A stretch of DNA of 64,000 nt from sequence record MN850580.1; one strand, given 5' to 3'. Of the stretch, positions 8,564 through 35,352 are shown one piece after another (the stretch's first letter is position 1; the number at the start of each line of letters is the position of its first letter). The DNA is from Escherichia phage momo. The translations under genes and the position numbers were made by a program. Under the pieces are notes generated by a model. That model was not told the origin of the DNA. It saw nothing but the letters and a program-made list of their open reading frames with translations, and did not search any database.

Positions 8564-8564
8564 T

Positions 8565-8641: not shown

Positions 8642-8645
8642 ATAT

Positions 8646-8720: not shown

Positions 8721-8872
8721 CATTAAATTATCTTTGTAGATAAGCTACCCAGACTTGCTTAAGGTCTGTAGCGATGTGACTTTTTGGGTTTAAATCTAGA
8801 ATTTACCCTTTCACCCTTTGTGGTCGCATACTCACAGGTAAGCTTAATAACTTATCTACAAAGATAATTACC

Positions 8873-9003
8873 AGACCGTTGTTTATCATCTTAAGTGCTA
8901 CCATTACACCAACTCGACCTCTGCCGAGTGAAGGAATCGAACCTTCGCCTTTTCTTTACCGAGAAATAGATTGTTTAAGTTTTGCTGTAAACGGTCTTCT
9001 GTA
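8873..9003 (-). repeat. tRNA-spacer hairpin repeat (CCAGACC...GGTCTTCTG) enclosing a T-arm-like hairpin
   Basis: Inverted termini CCAGACCGTT / AACGGTCTTCTG; internal GAAGG-AATCGAA-CCTTC with no matching acceptor stem. Confidence 0.4.
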
Positions 9004-9013
9004 AATTTGTTGA

Positions 9014-9113
9014 GCCAGACCAAGTTTTAAATTTTTTCAAAATTGAATTGGCTTGAAAATATCATACATTCTTGCTGTATTTGGTCTTCTACTCCTTTAA
9101 AGAATACTCGTAA
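9014..9113 (-). repeat. tRNA-spacer hairpin repeat (CCAGACC...GGTCTTCT)
   Basis: Same terminal inverted repeat as 8873-9003. Confidence 0.4.
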
Positions 9114-9152
9114 GAACTCTTTAAGGGAGGGGCTAAATAGCCCTCTCAAAAT

Positions 9153-9230
9153 TGGCGGTTACGAAGGGATTTGAACCCTCATCATCTCCCGTGACAGGGG
9201 AGTATTTTAACCAAATTAAACTACATAACC
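9153..9230 (-). tRNA. tRNA-Asp(GUC): tRNA-Asp (anticodon GUC)
   Basis: Perfect anticodon stem CUCCC/GGGAG, loop CUGUCAC. Confidence 0.65.
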
Positions 9231-9235
9231 TTTAT

Positions 9236-9323
9236 TGGTGTGCCGTGTAGGAGTCGAACCTACCGAGTCTCAATGACAAGGGATTTACAGTCCCCACCGC
9301 TACCATCTACGGGATAACGACAC
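9236..9323 (-). tRNA. tRNA-Tyr(GUA): tRNA-Tyr (anticodon GUA), long variable arm
   Basis: 85-nt body; anticodon loop CUGUAAA. Confidence 0.6.
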
Positions 9324-9331
9324 ATTTAATT

Positions 9332-9408
9332 TGGCGGTTAGTCAGGGATTCGAACCCTGTGCCATTCGCTTAACAGGCGACCGCACATACCTTATGTGCT
9401 TCCTAACC
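9332..9408 (-). tRNA. tRNA-Asn(GUU): tRNA-Asn (anticodon GUU)
   Basis: Anticodon loop CUGUUAA; T-arm CAGGG/CCCUG. Confidence 0.55.
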
Positions 9409-9418
9409 TTAATACATT

Positions 9419-9481
9419 GCCAGACCGTGTTTTTTCTTTTATCCGCAAAAAAGTATTTTGTTGCTGAATACGGTCTTCTGC
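9419..9481 (-). repeat. tRNA-spacer hairpin repeat (CAGACCGT...ACGGTCTTCTG)
   Basis: Terminal inverted repeat, immediately 3' of tRNA in transcript orientation. Confidence 0.4.
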
Positions 9482-9486
9482 AAAAT

Positions 9487-9563
9487 TGGAGGCGGGTGCA
9501 GGAGTCGAACCTGCCGATACCATGCTAATGAGACATGTGAGACGCCCTTTCTCTATACCCGCA
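9487..9563 (-). tRNA. tRNA-Met/Ile2(CAU): tRNA with anticodon CAU (initiator Met, elongator Met or lysidine Ile2)
   Basis: Anticodon stem CAUGU/GCAUG, loop CUCAUUA; possible 1-72 mismatch. Confidence 0.5.
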
Positions 9564-9574
9564 ATTCTTAATGA

Positions 9575-9648
9575 CCAGACCAAATCTCTTCTTTGTCCGA
9601 TTTACCTTCAGATGAATAAGATTAAGTTTGCTGTAATTGGTCTTCTGT
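9575..9648 (-). repeat. tRNA-spacer hairpin repeat (CCAGACCAA...TTGGTCTTCTG)
   Basis: Terminal inverted repeat as in the other spacers. Confidence 0.4.
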
Positions 9649-9654
9649 CAAAAC

Positions 9655-9732
9655 TGGCGTTCCAGAAGGGATTTGAACCCTCAGATATCCACTTTGAAAG
9701 AGTGGTGACTATACCATTTTGTCTACTGGAAC
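9655..9732 (-). tRNA. tRNA-Glu(UUC): tRNA-Glu (anticodon UUC)
   Basis: Perfect acceptor GUUCCAG/CUGGAAC; anticodon loop CUUUCAA. Confidence 0.65.
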
Positions 9733-18496: not shown

Positions 18497-19058
18497 TGTT
18501 GTGATAGCTATGGAAAAAGATAACTTAAAAGAAGTTGAAGGTAACTACCTAGTCCTTGACTGGAGTGATGTTCGTGAAGCACTCTCCGAAGAAAATCTTG
18601 ACTGGTTCCAACAAATTATCTTTGCAGTACGACATACCAGAGAAGTTGAAAATGGTAAAGAGCCACTTGAAGGAATCTTTGTAGAGAAGTCTTATCCGTT
18701 CTATGAAGACACTTTACAGAAAGTTAAAATGTACTTTAAACAGAAGAACCGTAAAGTGGTCACTATGGTATCTCTTGGTGGACAGAGTATGTCTGTGATG
18801 GAAGATATCAACCCTAAGAGACCGAGCAAAGGTGTCTGTATAAAAATCACAGGGCATGAAGAGTATATCTCAGTGGACGATTTTAGTGTGTTCTGTAATG
18901 GTTCTGCTGTCTTTAATGGGTTTCACTATGATATCCGAGTGTACCCAATCAAGGGAGATGATATCATGATGCAGATATTCGATAACAACAATGGATTTAC
19001 TCATTTTTATCAGACAACCAAGTCATCATTAAAAACAGTTCTGGAAACACTGATTTAA
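18465..19058 (+). CDS. hypothetical protein
   Basis: 197-aa ORF; true start may be internal MEKDNLKEV. Confidence 0.4.
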   Translation: MQYQPTKFYDNVVIAMEKDNLKEVEGNYLVLDWSDVREALSEENLDWFQQIIFAVRHTREVENGKEPLEGIFVEKSYPFYEDTLQKVKMYFKQKNRKVVTMVSLGGQSMSVMEDINPKRPSKGVCIKITGHEEYISVDDFSVFCNGSAVFNGFHYDIRVYPIKGDDIMMQIFDNNNGFTHFYQTTKSSLKTVLETLI

Positions 19059-19068
19059 AATATCTTAA

Positions 19069-19100
19069 GAGCCTCCTTAATTGGGGGCTTTTTAATTTTT
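19069..19100 (+). terminator. rho-independent terminator closing plus-strand cluster
   Basis: AGCCTCC-loop-GGGGGCT followed by TTTTTAATTTTT. Confidence 0.5.
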
Positions 19101-19105
19101 ATAAA

Positions 19106-20700
19106 ATTTTATCGGTTGTCCCAACCTCTGGGTCACCATCATATGTGAATAAAATATCTACCCTTCTTAACAACCTTCTTAAGCTTACTCTCTATATATA
19201 GTTATATAGTACTATATAGTATCTTAGTATCTATCTAGTGGTCTTAATAGCCCCTCTGTATAGCCCTTCTAAATAGCCTTCTAAACACTCTTCTAACAAG
19301 CCTTCTTAATAACCTATACAATCACCTTAACCATTCCTCTACACACTCTTAGAAGCTCCTATACACCTCTTAATCTCTATGTCAGCTATGATACCCTCTA
19401 TAGGTGTTCACTAGGTACTACTAAGCCTCTATATAGACTGTTTTAACAAACTTAACAGGAATATCTTCACAGACTTTATCTCACAAGGTCTAACACGGCA
19501 CTAACAAGGTATCTTATAAGCCTGTTTCTACCTGTATTTTTAAAAGACTGTATAGGTAATTATTCAGAATCTTAAAATTTTTATAAAATAGAGCTATCAA
19601 GTCATTTTTTAGGGTCTTTGAAGGAACTGAAAAATATCTGTAGAAGATGTATATCTGCTTGGTAGCCCTTAACAGCCCCCTTACAAGTACTTTGCAAAAT
19701 TTTAAAATATCCTTAACAATCTCTTAACAGTTCTCACACCTTCTTAACAACTCTTCAAAGGTCTTAACAGATTCTTAACAGAACTAACAAGGATGTAACA
19801 GTTTTCTAACAAGTGCTGAATAGGCTTTACAGAATCTTAACAGATGACTAACAAGAGCTAAGTAGTTAAATGTTAAGAGTTATTTTGTTAAGATAATTAA
19901 CAAGTTTCTAACAAGTGTTTAATCTTTTTAACAAGCTATTAACATGGTCACTACTCTTTTCTTATCGTTCCCTTTGCTTCTTAGTGATTCTTTAAACATA
20001 CCTCTTAAAAGCCCTCTATAGCTCCTTGTAAGCTCTTTTAAGTCTCTTCCTAGTATTTACCCCCAACTATACAGACACCTCTTTATAAGGCTTTACAGAA
20101 GCTTTAAAGGCTATGTCAAAGGCTCTTACAAGGCTTTTACATGGTCTTAACAGAGATTTAACAAGGGGCTAACAAGTTGCTAACAAGTGCCTTAAAAGCA
20201 TAACTATGTAGGGTTTGTTAAGAAATTGTTAAGAAAATGTTAAGGGGGCTAGCATTTACGTAACTTTTAAGCTACTTCAAAATAACTTTTAAACTACTTC
20301 AAAATAACTTTATAGCCCCCTTCTTAGATATTCACAAGATAGCTAACGAGATAATAAAGCTTACACCCTTATAAGATTCTTTTAAGTCTCTGGGAAGCTT
20401 TATAAAGGGCTTTTTAGGGTGAGTTAATGCAATCCCTTAAGTTAGGTTGATAAGGCTGTTATAGAGCTTTATAGAGCGTTTAAACGGTTGCCCTTCCCTT
20501 TCGGGTTATGGGCTTATATTTAAGTTGATTTGATAAAAGGCTATAGAGTAGACTATAGAGTTATTGCTTTTTAAGGTCTGATAAGATTCTGGAAAGGAAA
20601 GGGAAAGGGCTGTATAAGGGATTTGATAAGACGTAAAAAAGCCCCTATGAGATAGACTCTATCGAATCTATATGGGAAAGGGGCTGTAAAGGTATCTGGG
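19106..20700. promoter_or_regulatory. 1.6-kb non-coding region dense in short direct repeats; candidate origin / regulatory hub
   Basis: No ORF over 60 aa; more than 20 copies of (T/C)TAACA(G/A)G, TATATAGT repeats at 19195-19245, 21-nt tandem duplication at 20281-20322. Confidence 0.5.
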
Positions 20701-20723
20701 GCTATTTAGCCCCGTTGCGGCGT

Positions 20724-20972
20724 TTAGTTAGTGCCTTTTTTGTCGTAGTACAGGGAGACAATTTTTTCACCCCAGTAGTGGTATGTATAACCCTCTTTGA
20801 GAACTTCCTGTTTTGTTTCTTTCCAGAATTCATCAGAGGGGTTGTAGTCACTGATGGTCTGGCTGATGAGGCCTTTCACCATTTCAAAGGTGTTATCAGT
20901 ACCTACAAGGTCAAATTTAACGTCCAGAGAGTAGAAGCCGAATTCGTTAACAGTTGCGCGGATAGTAGCCAT
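20724..20972 (-). CDS. hypothetical small protein (cassette array)
   Basis: 82-aa ORF directly preceded by conserved leader ending AAACTGGAGATTCTAAAATG. Confidence 0.5.
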   Translation of the reverse strand: MATIRATVNEFGFYSLDVKFDLVGTDNTFEMVKGLISQTISDYNPSDEFWKETKQEVLKEGYTYHYWGEKIVSLYYDKKGTN

Positions 20973-21051
20973 TTTAGAATCTCCAGTTTAGGAAGTTGAT
21001 TAAGGGTTTTATTTAGTGGGGAAGGTCATTCCCTCCCCGTTGATTGACAAT
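20973..21051 (-). repeat. conserved stem-loop plus leader cassette, variant A
   Basis: GGGGAGGGAATGACCTTCCCC hairpin then CTAAACTGGAGATTCTAAA leader. Confidence 0.6.
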
Positions 21052-21582
21052 TTACAGACTTTTGATTGTCTCGTCAATATCTTTTTCAATATCTTTTAAA
21101 GTTTTTTCTAAGTTCTTGATATTGAAAGATAAGCCCTCTCCTAGTGTCTTAGAGTAACCGCTAGGACGTGAGTTATATAGTTCGATTTCTTCCACTTCGA
21201 AGAGACTAACCAACTCACCGCTTACACTGTAAGCCATTGAAACAGTATTTACAGGGGCTTTATAAAACTTGTTTAAGGACTTGATAGAACGTTCATAAGC
21301 CATTTTATAACCGTTTAAAAGGTTTTTAACGTGGTTACGAACGTTTTTGCACTCATCTAAGTAAATCTCTAAGAATAACGGTAATAATTCCGCTACAGCT
21401 TGCATAAAGTGAGAGACTACAACAGTAGAAACATTACGGCGATGAATGTAATAAGCCCCGTTTTCTGACTTAGTGATGGTTGCAAAGTGTACCCCATTGC
21501 AGCGAAATTCGTATGTGTCTTTTACAGGTTTTGACATTACAGCATTTGAACGAATGAAGTTGATAGCTTTAAACTTGTTCAT
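21052..21582 (-). CDS. hypothetical protein (cassette array)
   Basis: 176-aa ORF preceded by cassette. Confidence 0.5.
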   Translation of the reverse strand: MNKFKAINFIRSNAVMSKPVKDTYEFRCNGVHFATITKSENGAYYIHRRNVSTVVVSHFMQAVAELLPLFLEIYLDECKNVRNHVKNLLNGYKMAYERSIKSLNKFYKAPVNTVSMAYSVSGELVSLFEVEEIELYNSRPSGYSKTLGEGLSFNIKNLEKTLKDIEKDIDETIKSL

Positions 21583-21665
21583 TTTGACTCTCCTAGTTTA
21601 AGGATTTTATTTAGTGAGGAAGGTCATCCCTCCCGTTGATTAGTAATTTACTTGTTTTGATAGCT
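21583..21665 (-). repeat. conserved stem-loop plus leader cassette, variant A, degenerate
   Basis: Hairpin and leader with SD GGAG. Confidence 0.5.
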
Positions 21666-21801
21666 GATTGCAAGCAATTTTTTAAGCTTATCTATAAAGA
21701 ATCTTTTAAGTGAATCCCTTTTAGATAAACCCCCTCGAACAAAGTTACCAATGTCAAGGGGTATTGTCAACACTTTTTAAAAGTTTTTTGTAAGTTATTG
21801 A

Positions 21802-22143
21802 TTAACTGATGAATATTTTTTCAGGCTTTACATAGCTGATACGTTGACTTTTTAGAAGGTCATCCCAGATTATCGCGGCAATGTGACCATATCCGGCCTC
21901 ACGTAAGAGCTTCATTGCTTTACTTCTCGTTTCAAAACGGCTTGCGTAGTACTCACTATTCAGAGTTGTTTTCTTCCCTTCATTGTCTACATGAATAATC
22001 TGCATTACGTGAAAGGGGCTTGTGTCCTCGCCTTTGTTCCACTGTTCAAAGTATTTTAGGCACTGCATAGGCGACATCTTATCACTAACCTGAGTTGACC
22101 AAGATGCGCCAGCTTTATCGGTAATTACGGTTACATAAGCCAT
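21802..22143 (-). CDS. hypothetical protein (cassette array)
   Basis: 113-aa ORF preceded by cassette. Confidence 0.5.
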   Translation of the reverse strand: MAYVTVITDKAGASWSTQVSDKMSPMQCLKYFEQWNKGEDTSPFHVMQIIHVDNEGKKTTLNSEYYASRFETRSKAMKLLREAGYGHIAAIIWDDLLKSQRISYVKPEKIFIS

Positions 22144-22233
22144 TTTTAGAATCTCCAGTTTAGGACTTTACTTAGTGGGGAAGGTCATTCCCTCCCCGTT
22201 GATTGACAATTTACAGACTTTTATCAGGCTTGT
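22144..22233 (-). repeat. conserved stem-loop plus leader cassette, variant A
   Basis: Near-identical to 20973-21051. Confidence 0.6.
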
Positions 22234-22467
22234 CTAGTCTTTTTCAATGATAATTTCATATTGACCGTCAACGCTGTCAAAATAGATGCCGTCTTTATCT
22301 TCTGTCTTAAAGTAGCATTGTATATCATCACTTGCGGGATAGTCTTGCCGTGCTATCTGGCAAACTTGAATAGCATTTTCTTTACTTCCTGTAAACTCTT
22401 CAAGCCCTTTAAAATCGCATGAATGACCATTACAGATGGAAAGGATGAGGTAAACGGTTGTAAGCAT
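22234..22467 (-). CDS. hypothetical small protein
   Basis: 77-aa ORF; upstream hairpin AGCCCCT-ACAA-GGGGCT instead of the standard cassette. Confidence 0.45.
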   Translation of the reverse strand: MLTTVYLILSICNGHSCDFKGLEEFTGSKENAIQVCQIARQDYPASDDIQCYFKTEDKDGIYFDSVDGQYEIIIEKD

Positions 22468-22510
22468 GATTTAAGCCCCCTAAAAGCCCCTACAAGGGGC
22501 TGATTAGTGT

Positions 22511-23077
22511 TTATAAGGTGATTGCATAGGTTTTTAAAAAAAAGCTCTTTAAATCCTCTTCTGCGATGTTTCCTGCCAGTGTATCCATGATGTCACAAAA
22601 AACCTGAATGCTGTCCGACTGTTGAACGCTTTTAGCAAGAAGCTCCAGAGACTCATCAAGATAGTTTAAATTTGGGTTATCCAATGAAGGAAGACAAAAA
22701 GGCGAAAACATCGCATTAAACTCGGTTACGTAAACCTTTTTAATCCAATTTAAATCGAAGTATTCTGTAAAACTTGCTACGCCAGACATATTATCACAAG
22801 AATAATCATCATTTAATTCGTCCTCTGGAATATCAAGTTCCAAGATAACAATGTTTTGGGTTTTCATCTGGAAAGCTGCCGTGATAGTGGCATTTCCTAA
22901 CGCCTGTTGAATACCTTCGGATACTATCTCTTCCTCATCGTCACCATAGATTTTATTTTCTGGGTATACGTAAAAATTGCCATCCATATCCGAACAATTC
23001 CATGCACCTGATGGCTTATCACCATTATTAATCAGGTTGATAAAGTTTTCTTGAGTAGTACCGTGAAAGCATTTCAT
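22511..23077 (-). CDS. hypothetical protein (cassette array)
   Basis: 188-aa ORF preceded by variant B cassette. Confidence 0.5.
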   Translation of the reverse strand: MKCFHGTTQENFINLINNGDKPSGAWNCSDMDGNFYVYPENKIYGDDEEEIVSEGIQQALGNATITAAFQMKTQNIVILELDIPEDELNDDYSCDNMSGVASFTEYFDLNWIKKVYVTEFNAMFSPFCLPSLDNPNLNYLDESLELLAKSVQQSDSIQVFCDIMDTLAGNIAEEDLKSFFLKTYAITL

Positions 23078-23163
23078 TTTTTGAATCTCCAGTTTAGGAT
23101 TTAGTGGTAAAGCTCTTTATCTGGGGCTTACTTTATCGAACTATAAGCCCCTTGTAAAGTACT
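23078..23163 (-). repeat. conserved stem-loop plus leader cassette, variant B
   Basis: GGGGCTTA-13 nt-TAAGCCCC hairpin; minus strand TTTACA-17 nt-TAAAGT promoter-like; leader with SD GGAG. Confidence 0.6.
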
Positions 23164-23367
23164 TTATTTGTTATTTTTGACAACTTTTAAGACTGCAAGA
23201 TACCCTAAGCAATAAGAATCACCGAAGAGAGTCCTACCCATGAAAGAATCCTCTTTGATATCCTTTGTAGTGACAGTTTTTTCTACGCCGTGGGAAAGGA
23301 CTATATCGCCAACTTTGATATCTTTGATGTGTGTAGTTTCAATGTTTAAGCCGTTAATAATAGCCAT
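23164..23367 (-). CDS. hypothetical small protein (cassette array)
   Basis: 67-aa ORF preceded by variant A cassette. Confidence 0.5.
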   Translation of the reverse strand: MAIINGLNIETTHIKDIKVGDIVLSHGVEKTVTTKDIKEDSFMGRTLFGDSYCLGYLAVLKVVKNNK

Positions 23368-23467
23368 TTTAGAATCTCCAGTTTAGGACTTTACTTAGTG
23401 GGGAAGGTCATTCCCTCCCCGTTGATGTGTAATTTAATCTATCTAAAAACCGGTGTCAACAAAATTT
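23368..23467 (-). repeat. conserved stem-loop plus leader cassette, variant A
   Basis: Same hairpin and leader. Confidence 0.6.
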
Positions 23468-23872
23468 TTAGAGTTCTGCATAAATTGCATCACAGACATC
23501 ACGAAAATCGTGATTTGTCAAATTACGTTGTAACCAAGTGGCAAAGAAATCAGCGATTGCAAAATTAGCGTCATACTCGACGGATAGCCATACTTTAACA
23601 GCAAATCGAAACATTTTTAAATCAAGCTCTTTATTCATTATCTTTGATTTGCCTAACATGTCAGCCATTTCATATTGTGCGCCGTCTAGCGTGATACCTG
23701 ATGCAACGTCAGCCAATGATTTTTTTACGTTTTCAACGTCTAAGATAACGCTTTGAATCTTCCCGATAATGTTGTGCAATGTCTCATCAGGCGCTGATGA
23801 CGTGATAACATTAATCCGGTTAACGGTCAAACGTGCTTTTAAGATTGATAATTCACGGTTATTAATAGCCAT
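23468..23872 (-). CDS. hypothetical protein (cassette array)
   Basis: 134-aa ORF preceded by variant B cassette. Confidence 0.5.
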   Translation of the reverse strand: MAINNRELSILKARLTVNRINVITSSAPDETLHNIIGKIQSVILDVENVKKSLADVASGITLDGAQYEMADMLGKSKIMNKELDLKMFRFAVKVWLSVEYDANFAIADFFATWLQRNLTNHDFRDVCDAIYAEL

Positions 23873-23958
23873 TTTTAAGTTCTCCAGTTTAGGATTTAGT
23901 GGTAAAGCTCTTTATCTGGGGCTTACTTTATCGAACTATAAGCCCCCTGTAAAGTACT
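23873..23958 (-). repeat. conserved stem-loop plus leader cassette, variant B
   Basis: Near-identical to 23078-23163. Confidence 0.6.
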
Positions 23959-24231
23959 TTACACTAAATGCAGCTTTTTACCTTTTACTATGATGTAACT
24001 CGATGCGCTATTGCTTTGCACATCCTGATAAATTCTGCGCAAACGGCCTTCGTAGTATACTTTCCAACTGGTTGGAATCTTTTTCCCGTATCCTGTAGCA
24101 GTTTTTTGTAGTCCTGCAAGTTGCCAATCTAAGATATGTTGTTCGGCTTGTAAATCTTCGAAGTGCATTACACCGTTCACATAGTGACGAATGGTTACGT
24201 TTAAGGTGCGACCGTTGTTAGTAGTGTACAT
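23959..24231 (-). CDS. hypothetical protein (cassette array)
   Basis: 90-aa ORF preceded by cassette. Confidence 0.5.
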   Translation of the reverse strand: MYTTNNGRTLNVTIRHYVNGVMHFEDLQAEQHILDWQLAGLQKTATGYGKKIPTSWKVYYEGRLRRIYQDVQSNSASSYIIVKGKKLHLV

Positions 24232-24318
24232 TTTGAATCTCCTAGTTTAAGGACTTTACTTAGTGGGGAGGTTATTACCTCCCGTTGATTAGTAATTTAC
24301 TTGTTTTAAAAACCAAAA
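24232..24318 (-). repeat. conserved stem-loop plus leader cassette, variant A, diverged
   Basis: GGGGAGGTTATTACCTCCC hairpin and leader. Confidence 0.55.
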
Positions 24319-24651
24319 TCAAGAGGAATTTTTTCGTTTGCTCAATTCTTGAACAATTACAGCGTAGTAGTCTTTTAAGTCACTGACATTTAAAGCATTT
24401 ATCAGAGAATTATAATCATCGACTAACTGAAAATCATCTTTGAAAATGTCGCTGATTTGATAAGTTTTTGATTGAAATCTGAAGCTCATTTCTAACCGTT
24501 TTATTTGTTCATCACTTAAACGCTCCAGAAAGCTCATTACAAGGCTATTATTGACCTGTTGCGTGATTGCCTTATTTGCTAGATTATAGGCTTTATATGC
24601 CTTATATAGCGCGAAAATGGCAAGGATTGCGGTGATGCCAGTCATTAACAT
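24319..24651 (-). CDS. hypothetical membrane protein
   Basis: 110 aa with N-terminal hydrophobic segment; overlaps upstream gene by 7 nt. Confidence 0.45.
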   Translation of the reverse strand: MLMTGITAILAIFALYKAYKAYNLANKAITQQVNNSLVMSFLERLSDEQIKRLEMSFRFQSKTYQISDIFKDDFQLVDDYNSLINALNVSDLKDYYAVIVQELSKRKNSS

Positions 24652-24941
24652 GGTGTTTCCTCTTTACGTGATACTTTGCCATTTACAGTTATCTCATAGG
24701 ATTCTAATAAGTCACTTTTAGACTTTACTGGACTTTTAAAAGTATCATCATAAATATTTACTTGCAATACAGGTTTTTTATACTCCCTGCAACTATTCCA
24801 TAAGCAAATCACTACGCGACGGCCTTTTATTTTGCCGTGCAACCATTCCATAACATCATGATTATTTCTTGATGTCTCGATAAAATCAATTTTGTTGAGT
24901 AATTTGCTCAGATTTTCACGCACTTGATTTGATAATTTCAT
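24645..24941 (-). CDS. hypothetical protein (cassette array)
   Basis: 98-aa ORF preceded by cassette. Confidence 0.5.
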   Translation of the reverse strand: MKLSNQVRENLSKLLNKIDFIETSRNNHDVMEWLHGKIKGRRVVICLWNSCREYKKPVLQVNIYDDTFKSPVKSKSDLLESYEITVNGKVSRKEETPC

Positions 24942-25033
24942 TTTAGAATCTCCTAGTTTAAGGGCTTTATTTGATAAATCTCTTTATCTGGGGCTATCTT
25001 ACCAGCTTGATAACCCCGTGTAAAGAAATCTAT
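24942..25033 (-). repeat. conserved stem-loop plus leader cassette, variant B, diverged
   Basis: GGGGCTATCTTACCAGCTTGATAACCCC hairpin and leader. Confidence 0.55.
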
Positions 25034-25546
25034 TTAGTTCTTAAAGATATTCATCACTGAGTCTTTCAACGATTCCAAACGTTCTAATACTTCAGTTTCT
25101 GCGTCTGAATTGTTCACCTCTTCTTTTAGTCTATCTTCTAAATCCTCACCGTCACTATAGCACCAATCGAAAGCGTAACCAATATAAAAGCTGTCTAAAA
25201 CCGTTTTACCGTTTGCATCTACAACTTTCGCGGCAATGTTATACTCTGAAGCTTCTAAATCTCTTTCTAGTTCTTTTTGTAAGCTGATGTAAGCCTCTTT
25301 TGATGGATTTTCCCGGCCTTGTTTTGCATAGTCACTTGAAAGCTGTTTAAGGCTGTAATGCAAAGGGATTGCATATTTAAATGCATTATGCTGATAGTTA
25401 GGATTTTTAACAGTCACGCCGCCTTGATGGTCATCTGTAAACTTCCAATTATCAAGGTTATGGCTTGCTTCGTAGCAATTTACCGCTTCATAGATAATGG
25501 TGAATTTTTCTTTTACAACTTCAAAAGTAGCGTCTACAGTTTTCAT
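25034..25546 (-). CDS. hypothetical acidic protein (cassette array)
   Basis: 170-aa ORF preceded by cassette. Confidence 0.5.
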   Translation of the reverse strand: MKTVDATFEVVKEKFTIIYEAVNCYEASHNLDNWKFTDDHQGGVTVKNPNYQHNAFKYAIPLHYSLKQLSSDYAKQGRENPSKEAYISLQKELERDLEASEYNIAAKVVDANGKTVLDSFYIGYAFDWCYSDGEDLEDRLKEEVNNSDAETEVLERLESLKDSVMNIFKN

Positions 25547-25634
25547 TTTTGAATCTCCAGTTTAGGATTTAGTGGTAAAGCTCTTTATCTGGGGCTTAAG
25601 ATATCAACTTTTAAGCCCCTTGTAAAGTACTTTA
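25547..25634 (-). repeat. conserved stem-loop plus leader cassette, variant B
   Basis: GGGGCTTAAGATATCAACTTTTAAGCCCC hairpin and leader. Confidence 0.6.
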
Positions 25635-25892
25635 TCAGATTAAATTGCCAGTTAATGATAAGTGCATTTTATAGCCTTTTTTGGTAAAGACGTTCACTTT
25701 ACCGAGTGATTTTACACCTTTAAAAAGGTTGTTTGAACTGCGTTTTAAGGTTAGTTGTTTATCAGCCTTTACTCCCCATCTTACAGCGGATTGTTTTCCG
25801 TTGTCAACCACTTTCCCGCATAACTTTTTAGCCATAACGCGAGCGTCATCACGAGTTTTTGCAGCAATTACAACGTTTTTGATAATAGCCAT
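25635..25892 (-). CDS. hypothetical basic protein (cassette array)
   Basis: Start placed at MAIIKNVV directly after cassette; ORF track start is an upstream alternative. Confidence 0.45.
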   Translation of the reverse strand: MAIIKNVVIAAKTRDDARVMAKKLCGKVVDNGKQSAVRWGVKADKQLTLKRSSNNLFKGVKSLGKVNVFTKKGYKMHLSLTGNLI

Positions 25893-25981
25893 TTTTAAGT
25901 TCTCCAATTTAGGATTTAGTGGTAAAGCTCTTTATCTGGGGCTTACTTTATCGAACTATAAGCCCCTTGTAAAGTACTTTA
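25893..25981 (-). repeat. conserved stem-loop plus leader cassette, variant B
   Basis: Near-identical to 23078-23163. Confidence 0.6.
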
Positions 25982-26362
25982 TCAGTTAATTTTGAAAATT
26001 GTCACATAGCCGTCACTGCCGATTATTTGAGACACTCCAGCTTTTTCCACTGAATAGTCCATATTTTCAAGATGATAAACAGCATCATCATAACCATATG
26101 CGCCACCCTGATAACGTCTCTTATCGCATCTTATCAGGTTTTTACCACGTCCTGCAAGTGCATTCAGTACAGCTTTTTCACTTGATAGCGTACCATCTAA
26201 CATGGTTGCCGTGTAATGGTTGATTTTATTCCCGTTAATATCATACTTAAAATTGAATGCGTGAATAACAATCAATTTGCCGTTAAATTTTTCATCAAGT
26301 GACTTCTCCAGTGCGTTGCGGAAGTTGTCTTTGTTGATGAATTTCGGTGCACGATAAGCCAT
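25982..26362 (-). CDS. hypothetical protein (cassette array)
   Basis: 126-aa ORF preceded by cassette. Confidence 0.5.
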   Translation of the reverse strand: MAYRAPKFINKDNFRNALEKSLDEKFNGKLIVIHAFNFKYDINGNKINHYTATMLDGTLSSEKAVLNALAGRGKNLIRCDKRRYQGGAYGYDDAVYHLENMDYSVEKAGVSQIIGSDGYVTIFKIN

Positions 26363-26450
26363 TTTTGAATCTCCTAGTTTAAGGTTAATGTAGTAAAGCT
26401 CTTTATCTGGGGCTTACTTTATCGAACTATAAGCCCCTTGTAAAGTACTT
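26363..26450 (-). repeat. conserved stem-loop plus leader cassette, variant B
   Basis: Near-identical hairpin and leader. Confidence 0.6.
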
Positions 26451-26672
26451 TTATCTATCGTAATAGTAAACCGCTGTCTGTTTTATATGTCGCTTTGTAT
26501 TCTTCGTAAGGTAGCAATTAGAGTTGATTGCCGTTTCTACATAGTTGCAATAATCAGCTTCTGATATTCTACGCCATGCGCCGCACACTTGCATGTAAAA
26601 ACGTTTTACCTTTGTATTAACGTTGGTTGTAACCATCAATTCACGGCTGTAAATCATTATTTCGCGCTCCAT
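26451..26672 (-). CDS. hypothetical small protein
   Basis: 73-aa ORF overlapping upstream gene by 16 nt. Confidence 0.4.
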   Translation of the reverse strand: MEREIMIYSRELMVTTNVNTKVKRFYMQVCGAWRRISEADYCNYVETAINSNCYLTKNTKRHIKQTAVYYYDR

Positions 26673-26845
26673 TTCTCAAAGAGTTCAGCAGGGAAACGTT
26701 CGCTATAACCTTTTAAGGAAAAAGTGTTATCTTTGTGGATAGCTTCCACCTGATAAACCTTATAAGAACGTATAGTTAGCATTTTGTAAGAGTATTCGTG
26801 CTTAATGTTAACCTCATCGCCAACTTTAATTTTTCTTGATGCCAT
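26657..26845 (-). CDS. hypothetical small protein (first gene of cassette array)
   Basis: 62-aa ORF preceded by leader CTAAACTGGAGAATCTAAGAAATG. Confidence 0.45.
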   Translation of the reverse strand: MASRKIKVGDEVNIKHEYSYKMLTIRSYKVYQVEAIHKDNTFSLKGYSERFPAELFEKWSAK

Positions 26846-26890
26846 TTCTTAGATTCTCCAGTTTAGGAAGTGGGCTTGATTGCCCGTCTG
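26846..26890 (-). repeat. leader half of cassette, no hairpin
   Basis: Leader motif with SD GGAG only. Confidence 0.45.
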
Positions 26891-27096
26891 ATGCAGATAT
26901 TAGATAACCATACTCAAAGAGTCAATAGGAATTTTAAAAATATTTTTTTTTTTTTTGCAAAGATTGTAATGAAACGGGTGCGCGCGACTACCATAAAACA
27001 GAACTACAATCAAGAATTATTTTTCAATCCGCTACAAATTTTTCTGTTGACTTTTATTTCCAGATGTGGTAGCCTTGTGAGAAATGGCGACATCCC

Positions 27097-27295
27097 CACC
27101 TGCACCCACCTACCTGCACAATTCTAAAATGATTTTTCTTGCCCGACCTGATTTTTCTCTGCACGTTTTGAAAATGAAAAAGCTCTTTGGAGATTACCTG
27201 CACAGTTTGAAAATGAATTTTCCCTTTGGAGTTCAAAATTTTCTCTACAGATTTCTCTACAGAACTCTACCTGCACAATCCTGAAATGAAAAAGC
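27097..27295. repeat. direct repeats (A/T)CCTGCACA...GAAAATGA, 5-6 copies
   Basis: Copies at about 27098, 27114, 27168, 27196, 27269; adjacent poly-T run at 26944-26958. Confidence 0.5.
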
Positions 27296-27362
27296 CCCCC
27301 TTACCTGAAAAATTTACCAGATAAGAAAGGCTTAGTCTATTGTGAATACTATACAGAATTTC

Positions 27363-28148
27363 TTAGTTCTTTGCGTCTAAGAAGGTTACTTCCGGTGAAG
27401 AGAAAACCGTCTCGATATCCTCATCATTTCTTGCATAGATGTAAGCATCTGCATCACTGCCAAATGTTACTGCAATTCTGTGATTGCTCTTCGACAGGTG
27501 GGTAACTAGAGCGTTACTTAGAGACATCTTCTCAACCGGAGGGTTACTTTGATGTATCTTACCTTTTCTTCGTCTGAAGAGGGTAACTGTATCATCTGTG
27601 AACATTACTACACCTGCAAAGTATTCTGGTTCACAGTAGTTATTCCAACCTGAGCGTAACTTGTGGTACATCTCTCCTTCGTAGACATACAGATAAACAT
27701 CTACACTCTTCATCACCTGATTAATGATAACTGTGACGGCTTGAGGGTCTAGCCCACCGATACCTGCACCAATCATAGGTAGACCAACTTTCTTCAACTG
27801 ATTGACTTCACAGTATCTGTTAAGCTGTTTCAAAGATGATTCTAAAGCACTGTATCGGGCATCTTTACCAGTCTTAAGCTGAGTGTAAAGGTTAGCTATT
27901 CGACCTTGTTTTAAACGTGCTACAGAGAAATTACCCAGTAAATTTTCACAGGGTTTGTGTCCTATACCACCTGCATATAGATAAACTTCTGTATCGGTCT
28001 CATATGCTTTTGGGTAAAGTTTAGAAATCTTGTCAGCGATACCTGCACCCATTAAATTCATACAGTTGCAACCGTGACCGATGATGTCAAACTTACCTTT
28101 ATCAAATGCGGCAAAGATATCACCATTGATTATTTTTACAATACCCAT
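27363..28148 (-). CDS. putative macro-domain-like protein (ADP-ribose binding/processing) with C-terminal extension
   Basis: N-terminal INGDIF...DIIGHGCNCMNLMGAGIA resembles the macro-domain N(A)AN and GGGV(A) motifs; assignment tentative. Confidence 0.35.
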   Translation of the reverse strand: MGIVKIINGDIFAAFDKGKFDIIGHGCNCMNLMGAGIADKISKLYPKAYETDTEVYLYAGGIGHKPCENLLGNFSVARLKQGRIANLYTQLKTGKDARYSALESSLKQLNRYCEVNQLKKVGLPMIGAGIGGLDPQAVTVIINQVMKSVDVYLYVYEGEMYHKLRSGWNNYCEPEYFAGVVMFTDDTVTLFRRRKGKIHQSNPPVEKMSLSNALVTHLSKSNHRIAVTFGSDADAYIYARNDEDIETVFSSPEVTFLDAKN

Positions 28149-32906: not shown

Positions 32907-32985
32907 CTTATTACTCTCTCTTGTTAGTTAATAAATCATTTTGTAAGGCTATTCTAAGGGGCTTCGAAGCCCCTTGTCAAACACT

Positions 32986-35352
32986 TTAATCGTAAATTGT
33001 AGTTCCTTCTGGAACACACTTCACATCAAAGCCTAAGAACTTACTTACTTCGACGGGTGACACTTTATTCCAATCTAGATGAGAAAGCAAGAAGTTTTCT
33101 TGTTTTCTTTTTGAGAAGTAGTTTGTTACCTTAATAAACATACGGTCACCAGCTTTCTTAATTTTCTTGTAAAGTTTTGTATCATTATCAAGACACCTTT
33201 TCAAATCTTGCAACACACTAATAGTGTAAGTGTATGCAAATTGTGCAGCAATGTATTGGATTTTACCGAACATTGCCTCAACAGCATCTTCATTACCTTC
33301 TAGGAAGATAGTTTTGTTTGTATCCCGTGAATAGCAATAACCATCAGAAATCTTCCTGTTATTGAACGTAAAGTTTCTGGTAATAATCCAACAGCTTGTA
33401 AGGTCTAGGACACCACGCATACAGACGCGTGTCATATACCTGTTATGATTAATCCAATGAACATCAGTTAAGCTGTCGTTCAAGAGCTTCTCATCTACTT
33501 CAATCCAGTCTTCTGGTATCTTTTTCCAATTTGCTTTTCGGAAAACATAGACTGTCTTTCCAATGACATTGGCAACTGACTTAGCTACATCATCTGGAGA
33601 TGAGCAAAAACATTCGCCATCAACTGTGTCACCTACTGCCTTAATATAAAGCTGAGGCTCTTCAATCGTGTCTAAGTCTTCTGACACCTCTGTGTATGAG
33701 GCTACACCTTCTGCTGGAACAGCTTTCCAGAGTTTTACAACACCTCTCACAGCTTCTTTACGCTGATAATGGTGTTCCTTATCAGACATCTTCACAATCT
33801 TTAACAAGCTCTTATCAAGTTTGTGCAGATTGATTAAGTCATCTAACTCTTTCTCTGTAGAGAATACAAAGACAATACCGTTGTATCTGTGAAACAGACT
33901 TGACTCACTGGCATAGTCTCGACATGCACCACGCAAGATTTGATTGCGTCCTACAGTCTTCTCAGTACCATTTTTATTGCGACGGTCATTGATAACAAAC
34001 AAAAACTGTTCAATTTGGCTTTTACGCATTGCGCCAAAAATATTGAACATACTTGCCTCTTGAGTGTAGGAAAGTGATGTCGCACGAATCTTACTCTCTA
34101 AAGAGTTGAACTTAACATAAGCAACTGGGTCATAAAGATAATCTACTTTAGGGATGTTGTTTCCGTTTCTATCAACCTTAATATTACCTTTACCGTCACG
34201 TTCATAGATGACTGACCCGTCTTCTGCATAGATAATTCCACGACGAATATTTAGTAATTCTTCTTCCAGAGAATCAAGCTTAACACCTCCCCACTCTAGC
34301 TTTGGACACACAGCATTAAACATCTCTCGTGAGTTCAAACGTAACTCAGCATAAGCCTGTGCAGCATCCATGAGTGTAGGTTGGCTGTTAACTTTCTTGA
34401 TAACATCCTTTGTAATTGCTTCAGTTATCTTTTTAGTAGCCTCAATGATAACATTTTTTGTCGTGTCATTCATCTGCAATGCTTCACGAGAAGCTGCAAT
34501 AGCAACTGAACCAATAGGCATGTAGATGTTTACAAGGTCTACACTCCTACGGAAAAATTCTGGCAAGATTTTGAAGAAATCATCACCAAGTAATGCTTCC
34601 ATGTTAACAGGGTAGGCAATGTTACCCATCACCACATTAAACTCTGTCCTGTTACCACTAGAACGCCAGCTTTGCTTATGAATCATGGCATCATAAACAC
34701 CCTCTTCACGGGCAATGACGTTCATATCTGCTAACACGTCATCATATACAATATTACTTTCTGGTTTCACAGCAAAGTATGAGTATACGTGACCAGCCTC
34801 TTCAAAGAACTTTGAAATACGATGGTCAGCAACTGCTACACGTACAGCTAAACCATTAGGTTCTTTTGTTGGGTTAGTGGTTAGCTTAGTCACTTGAGGA
34901 ATACCATTCTCAAGATAAACAGAGTATTTATTAACAACACCATCAACGTAGCTCGATACTGTGAATGACTGAGCAATTGCAAACGGTGACTTTGAGCCGA
35001 TACCCATTGCACCAATGTAGTCATTAGAGTCATTCTTTGTAGAAGCCCCGTAGTTCAGATACAGACTCATAACTTTGTCATGAGTTAATCCAGTTCCAAA
35101 ATCACGAACTTCAAAGTAAGGCTCAAAACGAGTAGGTAAATGCACATGGAACGGGATGTTCTCTTTTCCAGCTTCTTTCTGAGCATCTACTGCGTTACAT
35201 GACAGTTCACGAATAACTGCCCTTTCTTTAAAGGTATATACACCAGAACTCAAAAGACTGAACATTTCAGGTGTCATTGTAATCTGTGCTTGAGATGTCT
35301 CCAAAGAAGTTGAACTCTTAATCACTTCTGCGTGGTCGTTTACCATGCGCAT
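32986..35352 (-). CDS. rIIA: rIIA-like protein with N-terminal GHKL ATPase fold
   Basis: Bergerat motifs ELSCNAVDA, DFGTG, GAMGIGSKS; 788 aa; followed by rIIB-like gene. Confidence 0.6.
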   Translation of the reverse strand: MRMVNDHAEVIKSSTSLETSQAQITMTPEMFSLLSSGVYTFKERAVIRELSCNAVDAQKEAGKENIPFHVHLPTRFEPYFEVRDFGTGLTHDKVMSLYLNYGASTKNDSNDYIGAMGIGSKSPFAIAQSFTVSSYVDGVVNKYSVYLENGIPQVTKLTTNPTKEPNGLAVRVAVADHRISKFFEEAGHVYSYFAVKPESNIVYDDVLADMNVIAREEGVYDAMIHKQSWRSSGNRTEFNVVMGNIAYPVNMEALLGDDFFKILPEFFRRSVDLVNIYMPIGSVAIAASREALQMNDTTKNVIIEATKKITEAITKDVIKKVNSQPTLMDAAQAYAELRLNSREMFNAVCPKLEWGGVKLDSLEEELLNIRRGIIYAEDGSVIYERDGKGNIKVDRNGNNIPKVDYLYDPVAYVKFNSLESKIRATSLSYTQEASMFNIFGAMRKSQIEQFLFVINDRRNKNGTEKTVGRNQILRGACRDYASESSLFHRYNGIVFVFSTEKELDDLINLHKLDKSLLKIVKMSDKEHHYQRKEAVRGVVKLWKAVPAEGVASYTEVSEDLDTIEEPQLYIKAVGDTVDGECFCSSPDDVAKSVANVIGKTVYVFRKANWKKIPEDWIEVDEKLLNDSLTDVHWINHNRYMTRVCMRGVLDLTSCWIITRNFTFNNRKISDGYCYSRDTNKTIFLEGNEDAVEAMFGKIQYIAAQFAYTYTISVLQDLKRCLDNDTKLYKKIKKAGDRMFIKVTNYFSKRKQENFLLSHLDWNKVSPVEVSKFLGFDVKCVPEGTTIYD

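What the first reader, a model, noticed from the sequence alone, without database searches (positions are those of the whole stretch)
20700..26900. Array of about 15 small genes each preceded by a near-identical stem-loop plus leader cassette
At least 12 intergenic copies of a ~85-nt cassette occur in front of consecutive small minus-strand genes. Each has a GC stem-loop (variant A GGGGAGGGAATGACCTTCCCC; variant B GGGGCTTA-13 nt-TAAGCCCC) followed by an almost invariant leader ...CTAAACTGGAGATTCTAAAATG. Variant B also contains TTTACA-17 nt-TAAAGT overlapping the hairpin. This resembles the promoter-early stem-loop cassettes of T4-type hyperplastic regions, thought to drive modular gene shuffling. 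All encoded proteins are small and unassigned, a typical profile for host-takeover or anti-defence genes.
Basis: partly seen in the sequence, partly recalled or inferred. Interest (0 to 1): 0.7.

Follow-up and report, generated by a model that had tools for sequence, protein, structure and literature searches.

The report
Repeated promoter-hairpin cassettes in a phage
In this Felix O1-like phage, 15 small genes of unknown function sit in a row, most with their own copy of a short promoter + RNA hairpin + ribosome-binding unit, and related phages have gained, lost and swapped genes by recombining between these copies.

Summary
The window is a Felixounavirus, 99.9% identical to Escherichia phage allfine. 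On the minus strand, 26845-20724, lie 15 genes of 62-188 aa with no Pfam match. Eleven carry a full 79-100 nt cassette and the first gene carries a related one.

There are two architectures. Type B (6 copies) has TTTACA-17 nt-TAnnnT with a GC hairpin between -35 and -10. Type A (5 copies) has TTGACA-like-17-TAAATT followed by a hairpin at about +3 of the transcript. Both end in the leader CCTAAACT(A)GGAGA-N8-9-ATG.

Across 186 distinct B copies from Ounavirinae, the -35, the T/A/T of the -10 and the 17-nt spacing are almost invariant. The stem covaries, and its non-Watson-Crick pairs are G.U on the sense strand only. As read-through RNA, type B forms a two-part hairpin spanning about 24 helix positions that encloses its own promoter.

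Indels between related phages end in cassettes, with chimeric junctions, and cassettes evolve in concert within a genome.

This is an analogue of the PeSL cassettes of T4-like phages, unrelated in sequence and not described as such for this subfamily in the papers I could search. No transcript data exist, so promoter activity and the hairpin's role are inferred. Interest is moderate.

The parts
27292..27333 (-). Intrinsic terminator after the Macro-domain ('phosphatase') gene 27363-28148. It marks the upstream boundary of the array.
   Evidence: 17-bp stem followed by a T-run. Corresponds to t13 of Felix O1. Macro domain from Pfam.
26846..26925 (-). First-gene cassette: promoter TTGACT (26925-26920)-17-TAATAT (26902-26897), mini-hairpin GGGC-aatcaa-GCCC (26885-26872), leader CCTAAACTGGAGA and ATG at 26845.
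26451..26845 (-). Genes of 62 aa (26657-26845) and 73 aa (26451-26672). They overlap and share one cassette.
   Evidence: PHROGs 'unknown function'.
26363..26451 (-). Type-B cassette: -35 at 26444-26439, -10 TAAAGT at 26421-26416, predicted +1 near 26408, extended hairpin 26451-26395. Drives the 126-aa gene 25982-26362.
25893..25981 (-). Type-B cassette: -35 at 25973-25968, -10 at 25950-25945, +1 near 25937. Drives the 85-aa gene 25635-25892.
25547..25636 (-). Type-B cassette with TGn-extended -10 TATCTT: -35 at 25626-25621, -10 at 25603-25598, +1 near 25590. Drives the 170-aa gene 25034-25546.
24942..25033 (-). Type-B cassette, variant stem GGGGTTATC/GATAGCCCC with a 13-bp lower stem: -35 at 25024-25019, -10 TAAGAT at 25001-24996, +1 near 24989. 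Drives the overlapping 98-aa (24645-24941) and 110-aa (24319-24651) genes.
   Evidence: RNA fold -27 kcal/mol, z = -4.1. Also.
24232..24322 (-). Type-A cassette: TTGATT (24322-24317)-17-TAAATT (24299-24294), +1 near 24286, 5' hairpin GGGAGGT-aata-ACCTCCC at 24283-24266. Drives the 90-aa gene 23959-24231.
23873..23962 (-). Type-B cassette: -35 at 23953-23948, -10 at 23930-23925, +1 near 23917. Drives the 134-aa gene 23468-23872.
23368..23459 (-). Type-A cassette: TTGACA (23459-23454)-17-TAAATT (23436-23431), +1 near 23423, hairpin at 23420-23400. Drives the 67-aa gene 23164-23367.
23078..23166 (-). Type-B cassette: -35 at 23158-23153, -10 at 23135-23130, +1 near 23122. Drives the 188-aa gene 22511-23077.
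   Evidence: RNA fold -23.1 kcal/mol, z = -3.84. Also.
22468..22510 (-). Spacer without a cassette: hairpin AGCCCCT-tgt-AGGGGCT (22501-22485) followed by TTTT, then the 77-aa gene 22234-22467. That gene has no promoter of its own and must be read through the hairpin.
22144..22236 (-). Type-A cassette: TAGACA (22236-22231)-17-TAAATT (22213-22208), +1 near 22200, hairpin at 22197-22177. Drives the 113-aa gene 21802-22143.
21583..21673 (-). Type-A cassette: TTGCAA (21673-21668)-17-TAAATT (21650-21645), +1 near 21637, hairpin at 21634-21618. It sits at the end of a 219-nt spacer and drives the 176-aa gene 21052-21582.
20973..21077 (-). Type-A cassette whose -35 lies inside the preceding gene: TTGACG (21077-21072)-17-TAAATT (21054-21049), +1 near 21041, hairpin at 21038-21018. 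Drives the 82-aa gene 20724-20972.
20635..20713 (-). End of the array: a lone B-like hairpin GGGGCTAAATAGCCCC (20713-20698) followed by AGATACCTTTACAG, then a large hairpin with a T6 run (20686-20635) as terminator.
   Evidence: Read directly from the sequence. Corresponds to t23 of Felix O1.

Best explanation
The array is the hyperplastic early-gene region of a Felix O1-like phage (subfamily Ounavirinae). Most of its ORFan genes are self-contained expression modules built from three parts.

1. A promoter for the host sigma70 RNA polymerase.
- Type B: TTTACA-17-TAnnnT.
- Type A: TTGACA-like-17-TAAATT.
- Both have an AT-rich stretch upstream of the -35.

2. A GC-rich hairpin that acts in sense-strand RNA.
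- In type A it sits 2-3 nt from the predicted 5' end of the cassette's own mRNA. There it most likely acts as a 5' stabiliser.
- In type B it lies upstream of the cassette's own start site. It therefore exists only in transcripts that arrive from the gene before.
- In those read-through transcripts the -35 region pairs with the +4 to +15 region to make a lower stem, and the -10 sits in the apical loop.
- The result is a two-part hairpin spanning about 24 helix positions, directly after the upstream stop codon.
- It would attenuate read-through, protect the 3' end of the upstream message, or both. This insulates each gene.

3. A shared leader with a GGAG ribosome-binding site 7-10 nt (mostly 8-9) before the ATG.

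Because the 80-100 nt cassettes are near-identical repeats in one orientation, homologous recombination between them deletes, inserts, swaps and re-promotes genes. It also homogenises the cassettes within each genome.

Shown here:
- the anatomy of the cassettes;
- the conservation pattern of the promoter elements;
- covariation in the hairpin;
- cassette-bounded indels with chimeric junctions;
- concerted evolution of cassettes within a genome.

Inferred, not shown:
- promoter activity and the exact start sites;
- what the hairpin does (attenuation, stabilisation or processing);
- early timing in this particular phage.
For: Promoter
- In 186 distinct B cassettes from 61 loci, -35 is TTTACA in 184.
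- The hexamer 17 nt downstream is TAnnnT in nearly all, with free middle positions (TAAAGT 58, TATCTT 43, TAAGAT 31, TAGTAT 13 and others).
- The distance from -35 to the next conserved block is fixed at 29-30 nt.
- An extended -10 TGn accompanies TATCTT (39 of 45), TAAGAT (20 of 32) and TACCTT (5 of 5) but never TAAAGT (0 of 58).
- In 237 distinct A cassettes, -35 is TTGACA, TTGCAA, TTGACT, TTGATT, TTGACG or TAGACA. It is followed by 17 nt and TAAATT (171 cases) or TAAAGT, TAATAT or TAGTAT.
- The 22 nt upstream of -35 are 76% AT, against 63% for the array.
- The consensus scan flags all six B cassettes, three of the five A cassettes and the first-gene promoter.
- In Felix O1, RT-PCR placed ORFs 16, 20, 21 and 22 of the orthologous array at maximal expression 5 min after infection (PMC3185647).

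RNA hairpin
- The upper stem is 98.7% paired in 50 distinct versions, and 3 pairs carry changes on both sides.
- 0 of 500 shuffles reach the observed pairing or covariation score, and sliding the partner collapses the pairing.
- Within stem positions 1-9, non-Watson-Crick pairs are nearly all G.U or U.G on the sense strand (about 50 cells, against a single A.C), plus a few scattered mismatches.
- The lower stem is 83% paired. At one position G-C (117) alternates with U-A (18). 0 of 500 shuffles reach the observed values.
- RNAalifold independently predicts the same two-part hairpin.
- Single cassettes fold at -23 to -27 kcal/mol, z = -3.3 to -4.1.
- Pairing with the invariant -35 explains why TAAAG at +4 to +8 is invariant even in Erwinia phages.

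Recombination
- Deletions of 1-3 genes and insertions relative to 38 related loci end at cassettes. The flanking alignments overlap by 26-100 nt in the shorter genome.
- The junction cassette in L028 is the 5' part of one cassette fused to the leader of the next. In L066 a type-A promoter and hairpin are fused to the leader of a type-B gene.
- The same gene family carries different cassette types in different phages, and gene order differs in Erwinia phages and in Mordin.
- Cassettes within one genome are 86.5% / 84.5% identical (promoter+hairpin / leader). Cassettes at orthologous positions in other genera are 80.8% / 80.7% identical.
Against: - No transcript data exist for any Ounavirinae phage in the searchable literature. 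Start sites, 3' ends and promoter strength are therefore predictions.
- Neither hairpin is followed by a U-tract, so neither is a canonical intrinsic terminator (flags none of them).
- The 77-aa gene at 22467 has no promoter and sits behind a hairpin plus TTTT. At least that hairpin must be leaky.
- Type-A cassettes fold no better than shuffled sequence as a whole (z = -1.0 to -1.6), and some A stems carry a mismatch.
- Covariation counts are inflated by relatedness among copies. The compensatory changes trace to only a few independent events.
- Breakpoints at gene boundaries are partly what purifying selection alone would leave.
- The Felix O1 RT-PCR put other genes of the array (ORFs 14, 17, 19, 23) at 25 min.
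Confidence: 0.7

Rival explanations
1. The type-B hairpins are RNase III (or other endonuclease) processing sites in a long polycistronic early transcript, as between the early genes of T7. The promoter-like hexamers would then be secondary or incidental. Cleavage on the 3' side of the internal loop would leave a hairpin-protected upstream mRNA. It would also leave a downstream mRNA that begins at about the same base as the predicted promoter start. This may hold in addition to, rather than instead of, the promoter function.
For: As read-through RNA the B cassette forms an interrupted helix spanning about 24 positions: a 12-bp lower stem, a 3x3 internal loop and a 9-bp upper stem. The size and shape are those of T7 R-sites (my own knowledge of that family). 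Both stems covary. There is no U-tract, so it is not a classical terminator. At least one gene (22467) depends on read-through.
Against: This does not explain the near-invariant TTTACA, the T/A/T pattern of the -10 at exactly 17 nt, the TGn that accompanies some hexamers and never TAAAGT, or the AT-rich upstream stretch. Type-A cassettes and the B2 variants of Erwinia phages have only 6-9-bp stems, too short for RNase III. No cleavage data exist.
Confidence: 0.2
2. The inverted repeats are operators. A dimeric phage- or host-encoded regulator binds the palindromes that overlap the promoters and switches the whole array on or off together.
For: The inverted repeats overlap the -35/-10 region. 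The blocks TAAAGTACTTTA and TAAAGAGCTTTA are near-palindromes flanking the core promoter. The repeats are genome-specific, which could reflect co-evolution with a protein.
Against: The stems keep complementarity rather than sequence. Several different stems coexist in one genome. Departures from Watson-Crick pairing are G.U on one strand only, which has no meaning for double-stranded DNA recognition. In type A the repeat lies downstream of the start site.
Confidence: 0.05
3. Only the leader matters. The repeats are start-associated sequences that act in translation, as proposed for cluster K mycobacteriophages and suggested for phage Mordin. The array would then be transcribed as one unit from the promoter at 26925-26897.
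For: The leader CCTAAACT(A)GGAGA is the part shared by all cassette types and sits 7-10 nt (mostly 8-9) before every ATG. The Mordin genome announcement made this comparison (PMC4611695).
Against: This does not account for the conserved promoter geometry or the covarying hairpins upstream of the leader. The leader diverges in Erwinia phages while the promoter and hairpin persist. A translational role for the leader is compatible with the best explanation.
Confidence: 0.08

Closest known systems
PeSL (promoter-early stem-loop) cassettes of T4-like phages RB49/phi1, T4/PST and KVP40/nt-1 (Arbiol et al. 2010, PMC2839356; Comeau et al. 2014, PMC4122927)
   Same: Both are intergenic repeats of about 100 bp in front of ORFans in a hyperplastic region. 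Both contain a sigma70-type promoter with an AT-rich upstream stretch. Both have a G-run/C-run stem-loop, most often between -35 and -10 or over -10, and end in a Shine-Dalgarno sequence plus ATG. In both, indels between close relatives are bounded by the cassettes and the junctions are chimeric.
   Different: The host lineage differs (Ounavirinae, not T4-like) and there is no detectable sequence similarity. There are two fixed architectures, one of which has the hairpin after the promoter. Type B has a covarying lower stem that pairs the -35 with the start of the cassette's own transcript. Neither hairpin has a U-tract. Promoter activity, terminator activity and mini-circles, all shown for PeSLs, are untested here.
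Start-associated sequences (SAS) and extended SAS of cluster K mycobacteriophages (Pope et al. 2011, PMC3203893)
   Same: Both involve a short conserved motif that includes the ribosome-binding site just upstream of many start codons. In both, a subset is preceded by inverted repeats with a variable spacer, and the consensus is specific to the subcluster or genome. Phage Mordin's 26-bp repeat was likened to SAS.
   Different: For the extended SAS, the authors found little support for an mRNA hairpin. Here the stems covary. The Ounavirinae cassettes also contain a clear sigma70 promoter and are confined to one gene array.
RNase III processing hairpins between the early genes of phage T7 (R0.3 to R1.3)
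   Same: Both are intergenic hairpins of about two helical turns with an internal loop, placed after the stop codon of one early gene and before the next. (This comparison rests on my own knowledge of T7.)
   Different: T7 sites carry no promoter. Cleavage has not been tested here, and type-A hairpins are too short.
Direct repeats reported in the Felix O1 genome paper (Whichard et al. 2010, PMC3185647)
   Same: These are the same elements. The 57-bp repeat between genes 15/16 and 19/20 is a type-B cassette. The 39-bp repeat between genes 18/19 and 20/21 is the promoter half of a type-A cassette.
   Different: They were reported only as repeats. That paper stated that secondary promoters downstream of the terminators and temporal regulation were not understood.

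Membership tests
PeSL regulatory cassettes (T4-like phages) | Sequence matching the sigma70 promoter consensus (-35, about 17 nt, -10) | tested here: met
   TTTACA or TTGACA-like, then 17 nt, then TAnnnT. Conserved across 186 B and 237 A copies, and TGn accompanies TATCTT, TAAGAT and TACCTT but never TAAAGT.
PeSL regulatory cassettes (T4-like phages) | [quoted passage not shown] | tested here: met
   76% AT in the 22 nt upstream, against 63% for the array.
PeSL regulatory cassettes (T4-like phages) | Stable stem-loop with G and C tracts, usually between -35 and -10 or overlapping -10 | tested here: met
   Met by type B (GGGG...CCCC between -35 and over -10, -13 kcal/mol). Type A instead has the hairpin after -10. 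The PeSL paper allows 'various positions'.
PeSL regulatory cassettes (T4-like phages) | Shine-Dalgarno sequence and start codon at the 3' end, in front of ORFans in a hyperplastic region | tested here: met
   GGAG lies 7-10 nt (mostly 8-9) before the ATG. All 15 proteins lack a Pfam match and fall in PHROGs of unknown function. Gene content varies among relatives.
PeSL regulatory cassettes (T4-like phages) | Insertions, deletions and replacements between close relatives are bounded by the cassettes | tested here: met
   Flanking alignments overlap by 26-100 nt at about a dozen events. Junction cassettes are chimeric.
PeSL regulatory cassettes (T4-like phages) | Demonstrated promoter and terminator/attenuator activity; formation of mini-circles | not testable with these tools
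   Needs reporter fusions, transcript mapping and inverse PCR. The absence of a U-tract after the hairpins argues against strong intrinsic termination.
PeSL regulatory cassettes (T4-like phages) | Residence in a T4-like genome, or sequence relatedness to the RB49/phi1 motifs | tested here: not met
   The genome is a Felixounavirus. A blastn search with a cassette found Ounavirinae, plus one Staphylococcus-phage and one Campylobacter-phage record, but no T4-like phage. Full B cassettes occur only in IMG/VR contigs of Ounavirinae size. This is therefore an analogue, not a homologue.
Start-associated sequences (cluster K mycobacteriophages) | Short conserved motif including the ribosome-binding site, 3-8 bp upstream of many start codons across the genome | tested here: inconclusive
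   A conserved leader with an RBS is present. It is confined to one array, is unrelated in sequence, and is attached to a promoter.
Intrinsic (rho-independent) terminators | GC-rich hairpin followed directly by a U-rich tract | tested here: not met
   The cassette hairpins are followed by AGAUAAAG (B) or ACUAAGUAAAG (A). The scan flags only the terminator-like hairpins at 27333-27292 and 22501-22485; the array-end terminator (20686-20635) was read directly from the sequence.
Rfam RNA families | Match to any curated covariance model | tested here: not met
   No match above noise in 19000-28000 (best E = 0.6).

The most novel reading that the evidence does not exclude
Type B is a dual-coded element. 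The same 60 nt act as a promoter in DNA and, in read-through RNA, as a two-part hairpin. That hairpin would be cut or stalled at its internal loop. Promoter-initiated and processed transcripts would then share one 5' end, and every ORFan would become an insulated plug-and-play unit. On this reading the system arose independently of the T4-like PeSLs. Recombination-prone expression cassettes would then be a convergent, general way for lytic phages to trade accessory genes, perhaps through excised gene-plus-cassette circles.
Probability: 0.2. Interest if true: 0.65.

Novelty: new member of a known kind. Interest (0 to 1): 0.5.

Why it matters
- It would show that PeSL-type shuffling cassettes are not peculiar to T4-like phages. 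They would also operate in a second, unrelated group of lytic phages that includes Felix O1 and many phage-therapy and biocontrol candidates.
- It assigns a likely function to repeats that two earlier genome papers reported without explanation.
- It gives base-level predictions of 12 early transcription starts.
- It explains where and how this subfamily gains and loses its unknown early genes.
- It points to natural, self-expressing insertion sites for engineering these phages.

Tried and rejected
- **Literature.** Searches for transcript maps or promoter studies of Felix O1-like phages found nothing usable.
- **Rfam.** The scan of 19000-28000 found only noise.
- **Protein function.** There were no Pfam hits and only PHROGs of unknown function. 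PDB sequence searches for the 188-, 170- and 176-aa proteins gave only chance-level hits or none. Homologues of the 188-aa protein came, where the source contig could be judged, from Ounavirinae-size contigs or named Shigella/enterobacterial phages. Its AlphaFold model had pLDDT 50, so I ran no fold search. The anti-defence idea could not be tested.
- **Register error.** My first structure string for the stem was off by one column. It gave 64% pairing, and the -1 slide gave 99.7%. I corrected it.
- **Alignment problem.** MAFFT put the gap of the 46-nt hairpin class into the 3' arm. I therefore tested the upper stem on the 47-nt class only, and on all classes with an end-anchored count.
- **IMG/VR scan.** The pattern scan returned 28 single-hit loci from contigs of other sizes. 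None contains a full cassette, so they are chance matches.
- **T4 MotA-type middle promoters, considered and rejected.** TGCTTTA occurs in some copies, but it lies 19 nt from the -10 rather than the 11-13 nt that MotA boxes need (my own knowledge).
- **RegB-type cleavage at GGAG, considered and rejected.** The motif is absent from the Erwinia-phage leaders.

Full report
**Identity of the window.** Bases 20700-26900 match Escherichia phage allfine (MN850633) at 99.9% over their full length. They match 254 other records, almost all Felix O1-like phages of Escherichia, Salmonella, Shigella and Citrobacter. The allfine record annotates the stretch as 15 'hypothetical protein' genes on the minus strand. 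They lie downstream of a 'putative phosphatase', which is a Macro-domain protein.

**The observation.**
- Reading the minus strand and extracting every spacer gives 15 ATG-started genes of 62-188 aa between 26845 and 20724.
- Eleven genes are preceded by a 79-100 nt cassette. The first has a related one. Three have none: two overlap the gene before them, and one follows a hairpin plus T-run.
- HMMs of the two cassette types find every copy at E = 1e-18 to 1e-27 and nothing comparable elsewhere in the 64 kb. The one weak exception is a promoter with a hairpin in its spacer near 32980.

**Anatomy.**
- Type B (6 copies) reads, 5' to 3':
  - the stop codon of the previous gene inside ATAAAGTA;
  - CTTTACA (-35);
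  - GGGGCTTA(T/A);
  - a 10-11 nt loop whose 3' end is the -10 (TAAAGT, TATCTT or TAAGAT);
  - TAAGCCCC;
  - AGATAAAGAGCTTTACC;
  - ACTAAATCCTAAACTGGAGA, 8-9 nt, ATG.
- Type A (5 copies) reads:
  - a TTGACA-like -35, 17 nt, TAAATT;
  - 7 nt ending in ATC, then A;
  - two bases later, a hairpin such as GGGGAGGG-aatga-CCTTCCCC;
  - ACTAAGTAAAGTCCTAAACTGGAGA, 7-9 nt, ATG.
- With the usual 7-nt distance from the -10, type-B transcripts would start at the A of AGATAAAG, after the hairpin. Type-A transcripts would start 2-3 nt before their hairpin.

**Are these promoters?**
- I collected cassettes from 15 GenBank loci and from IMG/VR contigs of Ounavirinae size.
- Among 186 distinct type-B copies, TTTACA is present in 184.
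- The hexamer 17 nt downstream keeps T1, A2 and T6 while its three middle bases vary freely.
- The distance to the next conserved block is fixed at 29-30 nt.
- T1, A2 and T6 are the positions that matter most for sigma70 recognition (established knowledge).
- An extended -10 TGn accompanies TATCTT (39 of 45), TAAGAT (20 of 32) and TACCTT (5 of 5) but never TAAAGT (0 of 58).
- Type A shows the same geometry in 237 distinct copies.
- The 22 nt upstream of -35 are 76% AT, against 63% for the array.
- The Felix O1 paper found ORFs 16, 20, 21 and 22 of the orthologous array maximally expressed 5 min after infection. It also found no phage RNA polymerase and no T4-like modifier of the host enzyme (PMC3185647).
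- I conclude these are host-type early promoters. This is inference, because no transcript map exists.

**Is the hairpin real, and in which molecule?**
- The 9-bp upper stem of type B is 98.7% paired in 50 distinct versions.
- Three pairs carry compensatory double changes. One is GGGG/CCCC in enterobacterial phages against GGTG/CACC in Erwinia phages.
- 0 of 500 shuffles reach the observed pairing or covariation, and sliding the partner collapses the pairing.
- Within the stem, departures from Watson-Crick pairing are nearly all G.U or U.G on the sense strand, with a single A.C and a few scattered mismatches.
- That asymmetry points to a structure in sense-strand RNA, or less likely in single-stranded DNA of that strand. 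It argues against a protein-binding palindrome.
- Type-A hairpins come in at least nine different stem sequences that all pair, again with G.U on the sense strand.

**The extended hairpin.**
- Folding whole B cassettes gave a longer structure than expected. The region from the upstream stop codon through CTTTA pairs with TAAAG-AGCTTT after the upper stem (-23 to -27 kcal/mol, z = -3.3 to -4.1).
- Counted on 148 distinct sequences anchored by motif, this lower stem has 5 invariant pairs, one mismatch and 6 more pairs.
- One of those pairs alternates between G-C (117) and U-A (18). Another varies between U.G, U-A and C-G.
- 0 of 500 shuffles reach the observed values.
- RNAalifold on 32 diverse copies predicts the same two-part hairpin without guidance.
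- This explains why AGATAAAGAG is the most conserved block of the cassette, even in Erwinia phages whose leaders differ. It must pair with the -35, which cannot change.
- The full hairpin can form only in RNA that enters from the upstream gene, because the cassette's own start lies in its 3' strand.
- It has no U-tract and is not a canonical terminator.
- I favour attenuation and/or 3'-end protection. The geometry, about 24 helix positions with a 3x3 internal loop, also fits an RNase III site.

**Recombination.**
- I clustered the array proteins of 16 genomes into families. This gave a syntenic backbone with presence/absence variation, plus changes of order in Erwinia phages and in Mordin.
- I aligned the window's array to 38 loci.
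- Deletions fall at cassettes:
  - two genes in Felix O1;
  - three genes in Felix O1, JLBYU32 and L052;
  - single genes in several other loci.
- Insertions fall at cassettes as well.
- The two flanking alignments overlap by 26-100 nt in the shorter genome. In other words, one cassette there aligns to both flanking cassettes here.
- In L028 the junction cassette is the promoter and hairpin of one cassette joined to the leader of the next. In L066 a type-A promoter and hairpin are joined to a gene that carries type B in the window.
- The same gene family carries type A, type B or a third hairpin type in different genera.
- Cassettes within a genome are more alike (86.5% / 84.5%) than cassettes at orthologous positions in other genera (80.8% / 80.7%). 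That is concerted evolution.
- Selection against broken genes contributes to the breakpoint pattern. It does not explain the overlaps or the chimeras.

**Comparison with what is known.**
- The published definition of PeSLs in RB49/phi1 matches feature for feature, apart from lineage and sequence.
- A cassette query finds Ounavirinae (plus two odd records, noted below) but no T4-like phage. Full B cassettes occur only in contigs of Ounavirinae size.
- Parts of the element had been noticed before. The Felix O1 paper listed 57-bp and 39-bp direct repeats. The Mordin announcement reported a 26-bp repeat likened to mycobacteriophage start-associated sequences.
- For the extended form of those sequences, the authors found little support for RNA pairing. 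Here pairing is supported by covariation.
- I found no paper that interprets the Ounavirinae repeats as promoters or as PeSL-like modules.

**Verdict.**
- This is a real, well-defined regulatory and recombination cassette system.
- It is a new member of a known kind.
- The hairpin that encloses its own promoter is the one feature I did not find described.
- The functions of the 15 proteins stay unknown.
- Interest is moderate, 0.5.

Noticed in passing
window 26950-27291 (noncoding stretch upstream of the array): The roughly 500-nt spacer between the Macro-gene terminator and the first array promoter is conserved in length across Felixounavirus (505-521 nt). It holds four copies of a unit of about 28 nt, TACCTGCACA..GAAAATGA, at 27111, 27159, 27195 and 27268 (+ strand), plus a tandem TTTCTCTACAGA. 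Some records annotate small opposite-strand ORFs here. Iterons or regulator sites are possible.
   Followed up: partly
window 19700-20700: About 1 kb of noncoding DNA beyond the array's terminator is full of short TTAACA / CTTTACAG-type repeats. The allfine record annotates it as repeat_region features. It lies where two transcription units converge. Its function is unknown.
   Followed up: no
window 32928-32989, minus strand: One more promoter with a hairpin inside its spacer lies outside the array: TTGACA-aGGGGCTTCGAAGCCCCt-TAGAAT, upstream of a gene starting at 32905.
   Followed up: partly
window 20684-20713, minus strand: Directly after the last array gene sits a lone B-like hairpin, GGGGCTAAATAGCCCC, followed by AGATACCTTTACAG. 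It looks like a cassette remnant without a gene.
   Followed up: no
window 22468-22510, minus strand: The 77-aa gene (22234-22467) has no cassette and follows a hairpin plus TTTT. It must be expressed by read-through, which suggests the hairpins in this array are leaky.
   Followed up: partly
window 4800-9700: The repeat families here are the T-arms of a dense cluster of tRNA genes on the minus strand, as expected for Felix O1-like phages.
   Followed up: no
GenBank GU169904 (Staphylococcus phage SA1) and one Campylobacter phage record: These records contain Felix O1-like array sequence at about 92% identity. They are probably chimeric or contaminated assemblies.
   Followed up: no
L010 / L014 (Erwinia phages SunLIRen, Harbringer): A further cassette variant, CTTTACA-GGGGTTAcggttatgagacTATAACCCC-GTCGAAAC, keeps the promoter geometry and the upper hairpin but lacks the AGATAAAGAG block. 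It therefore lacks the lower stem.
   Followed up: partly
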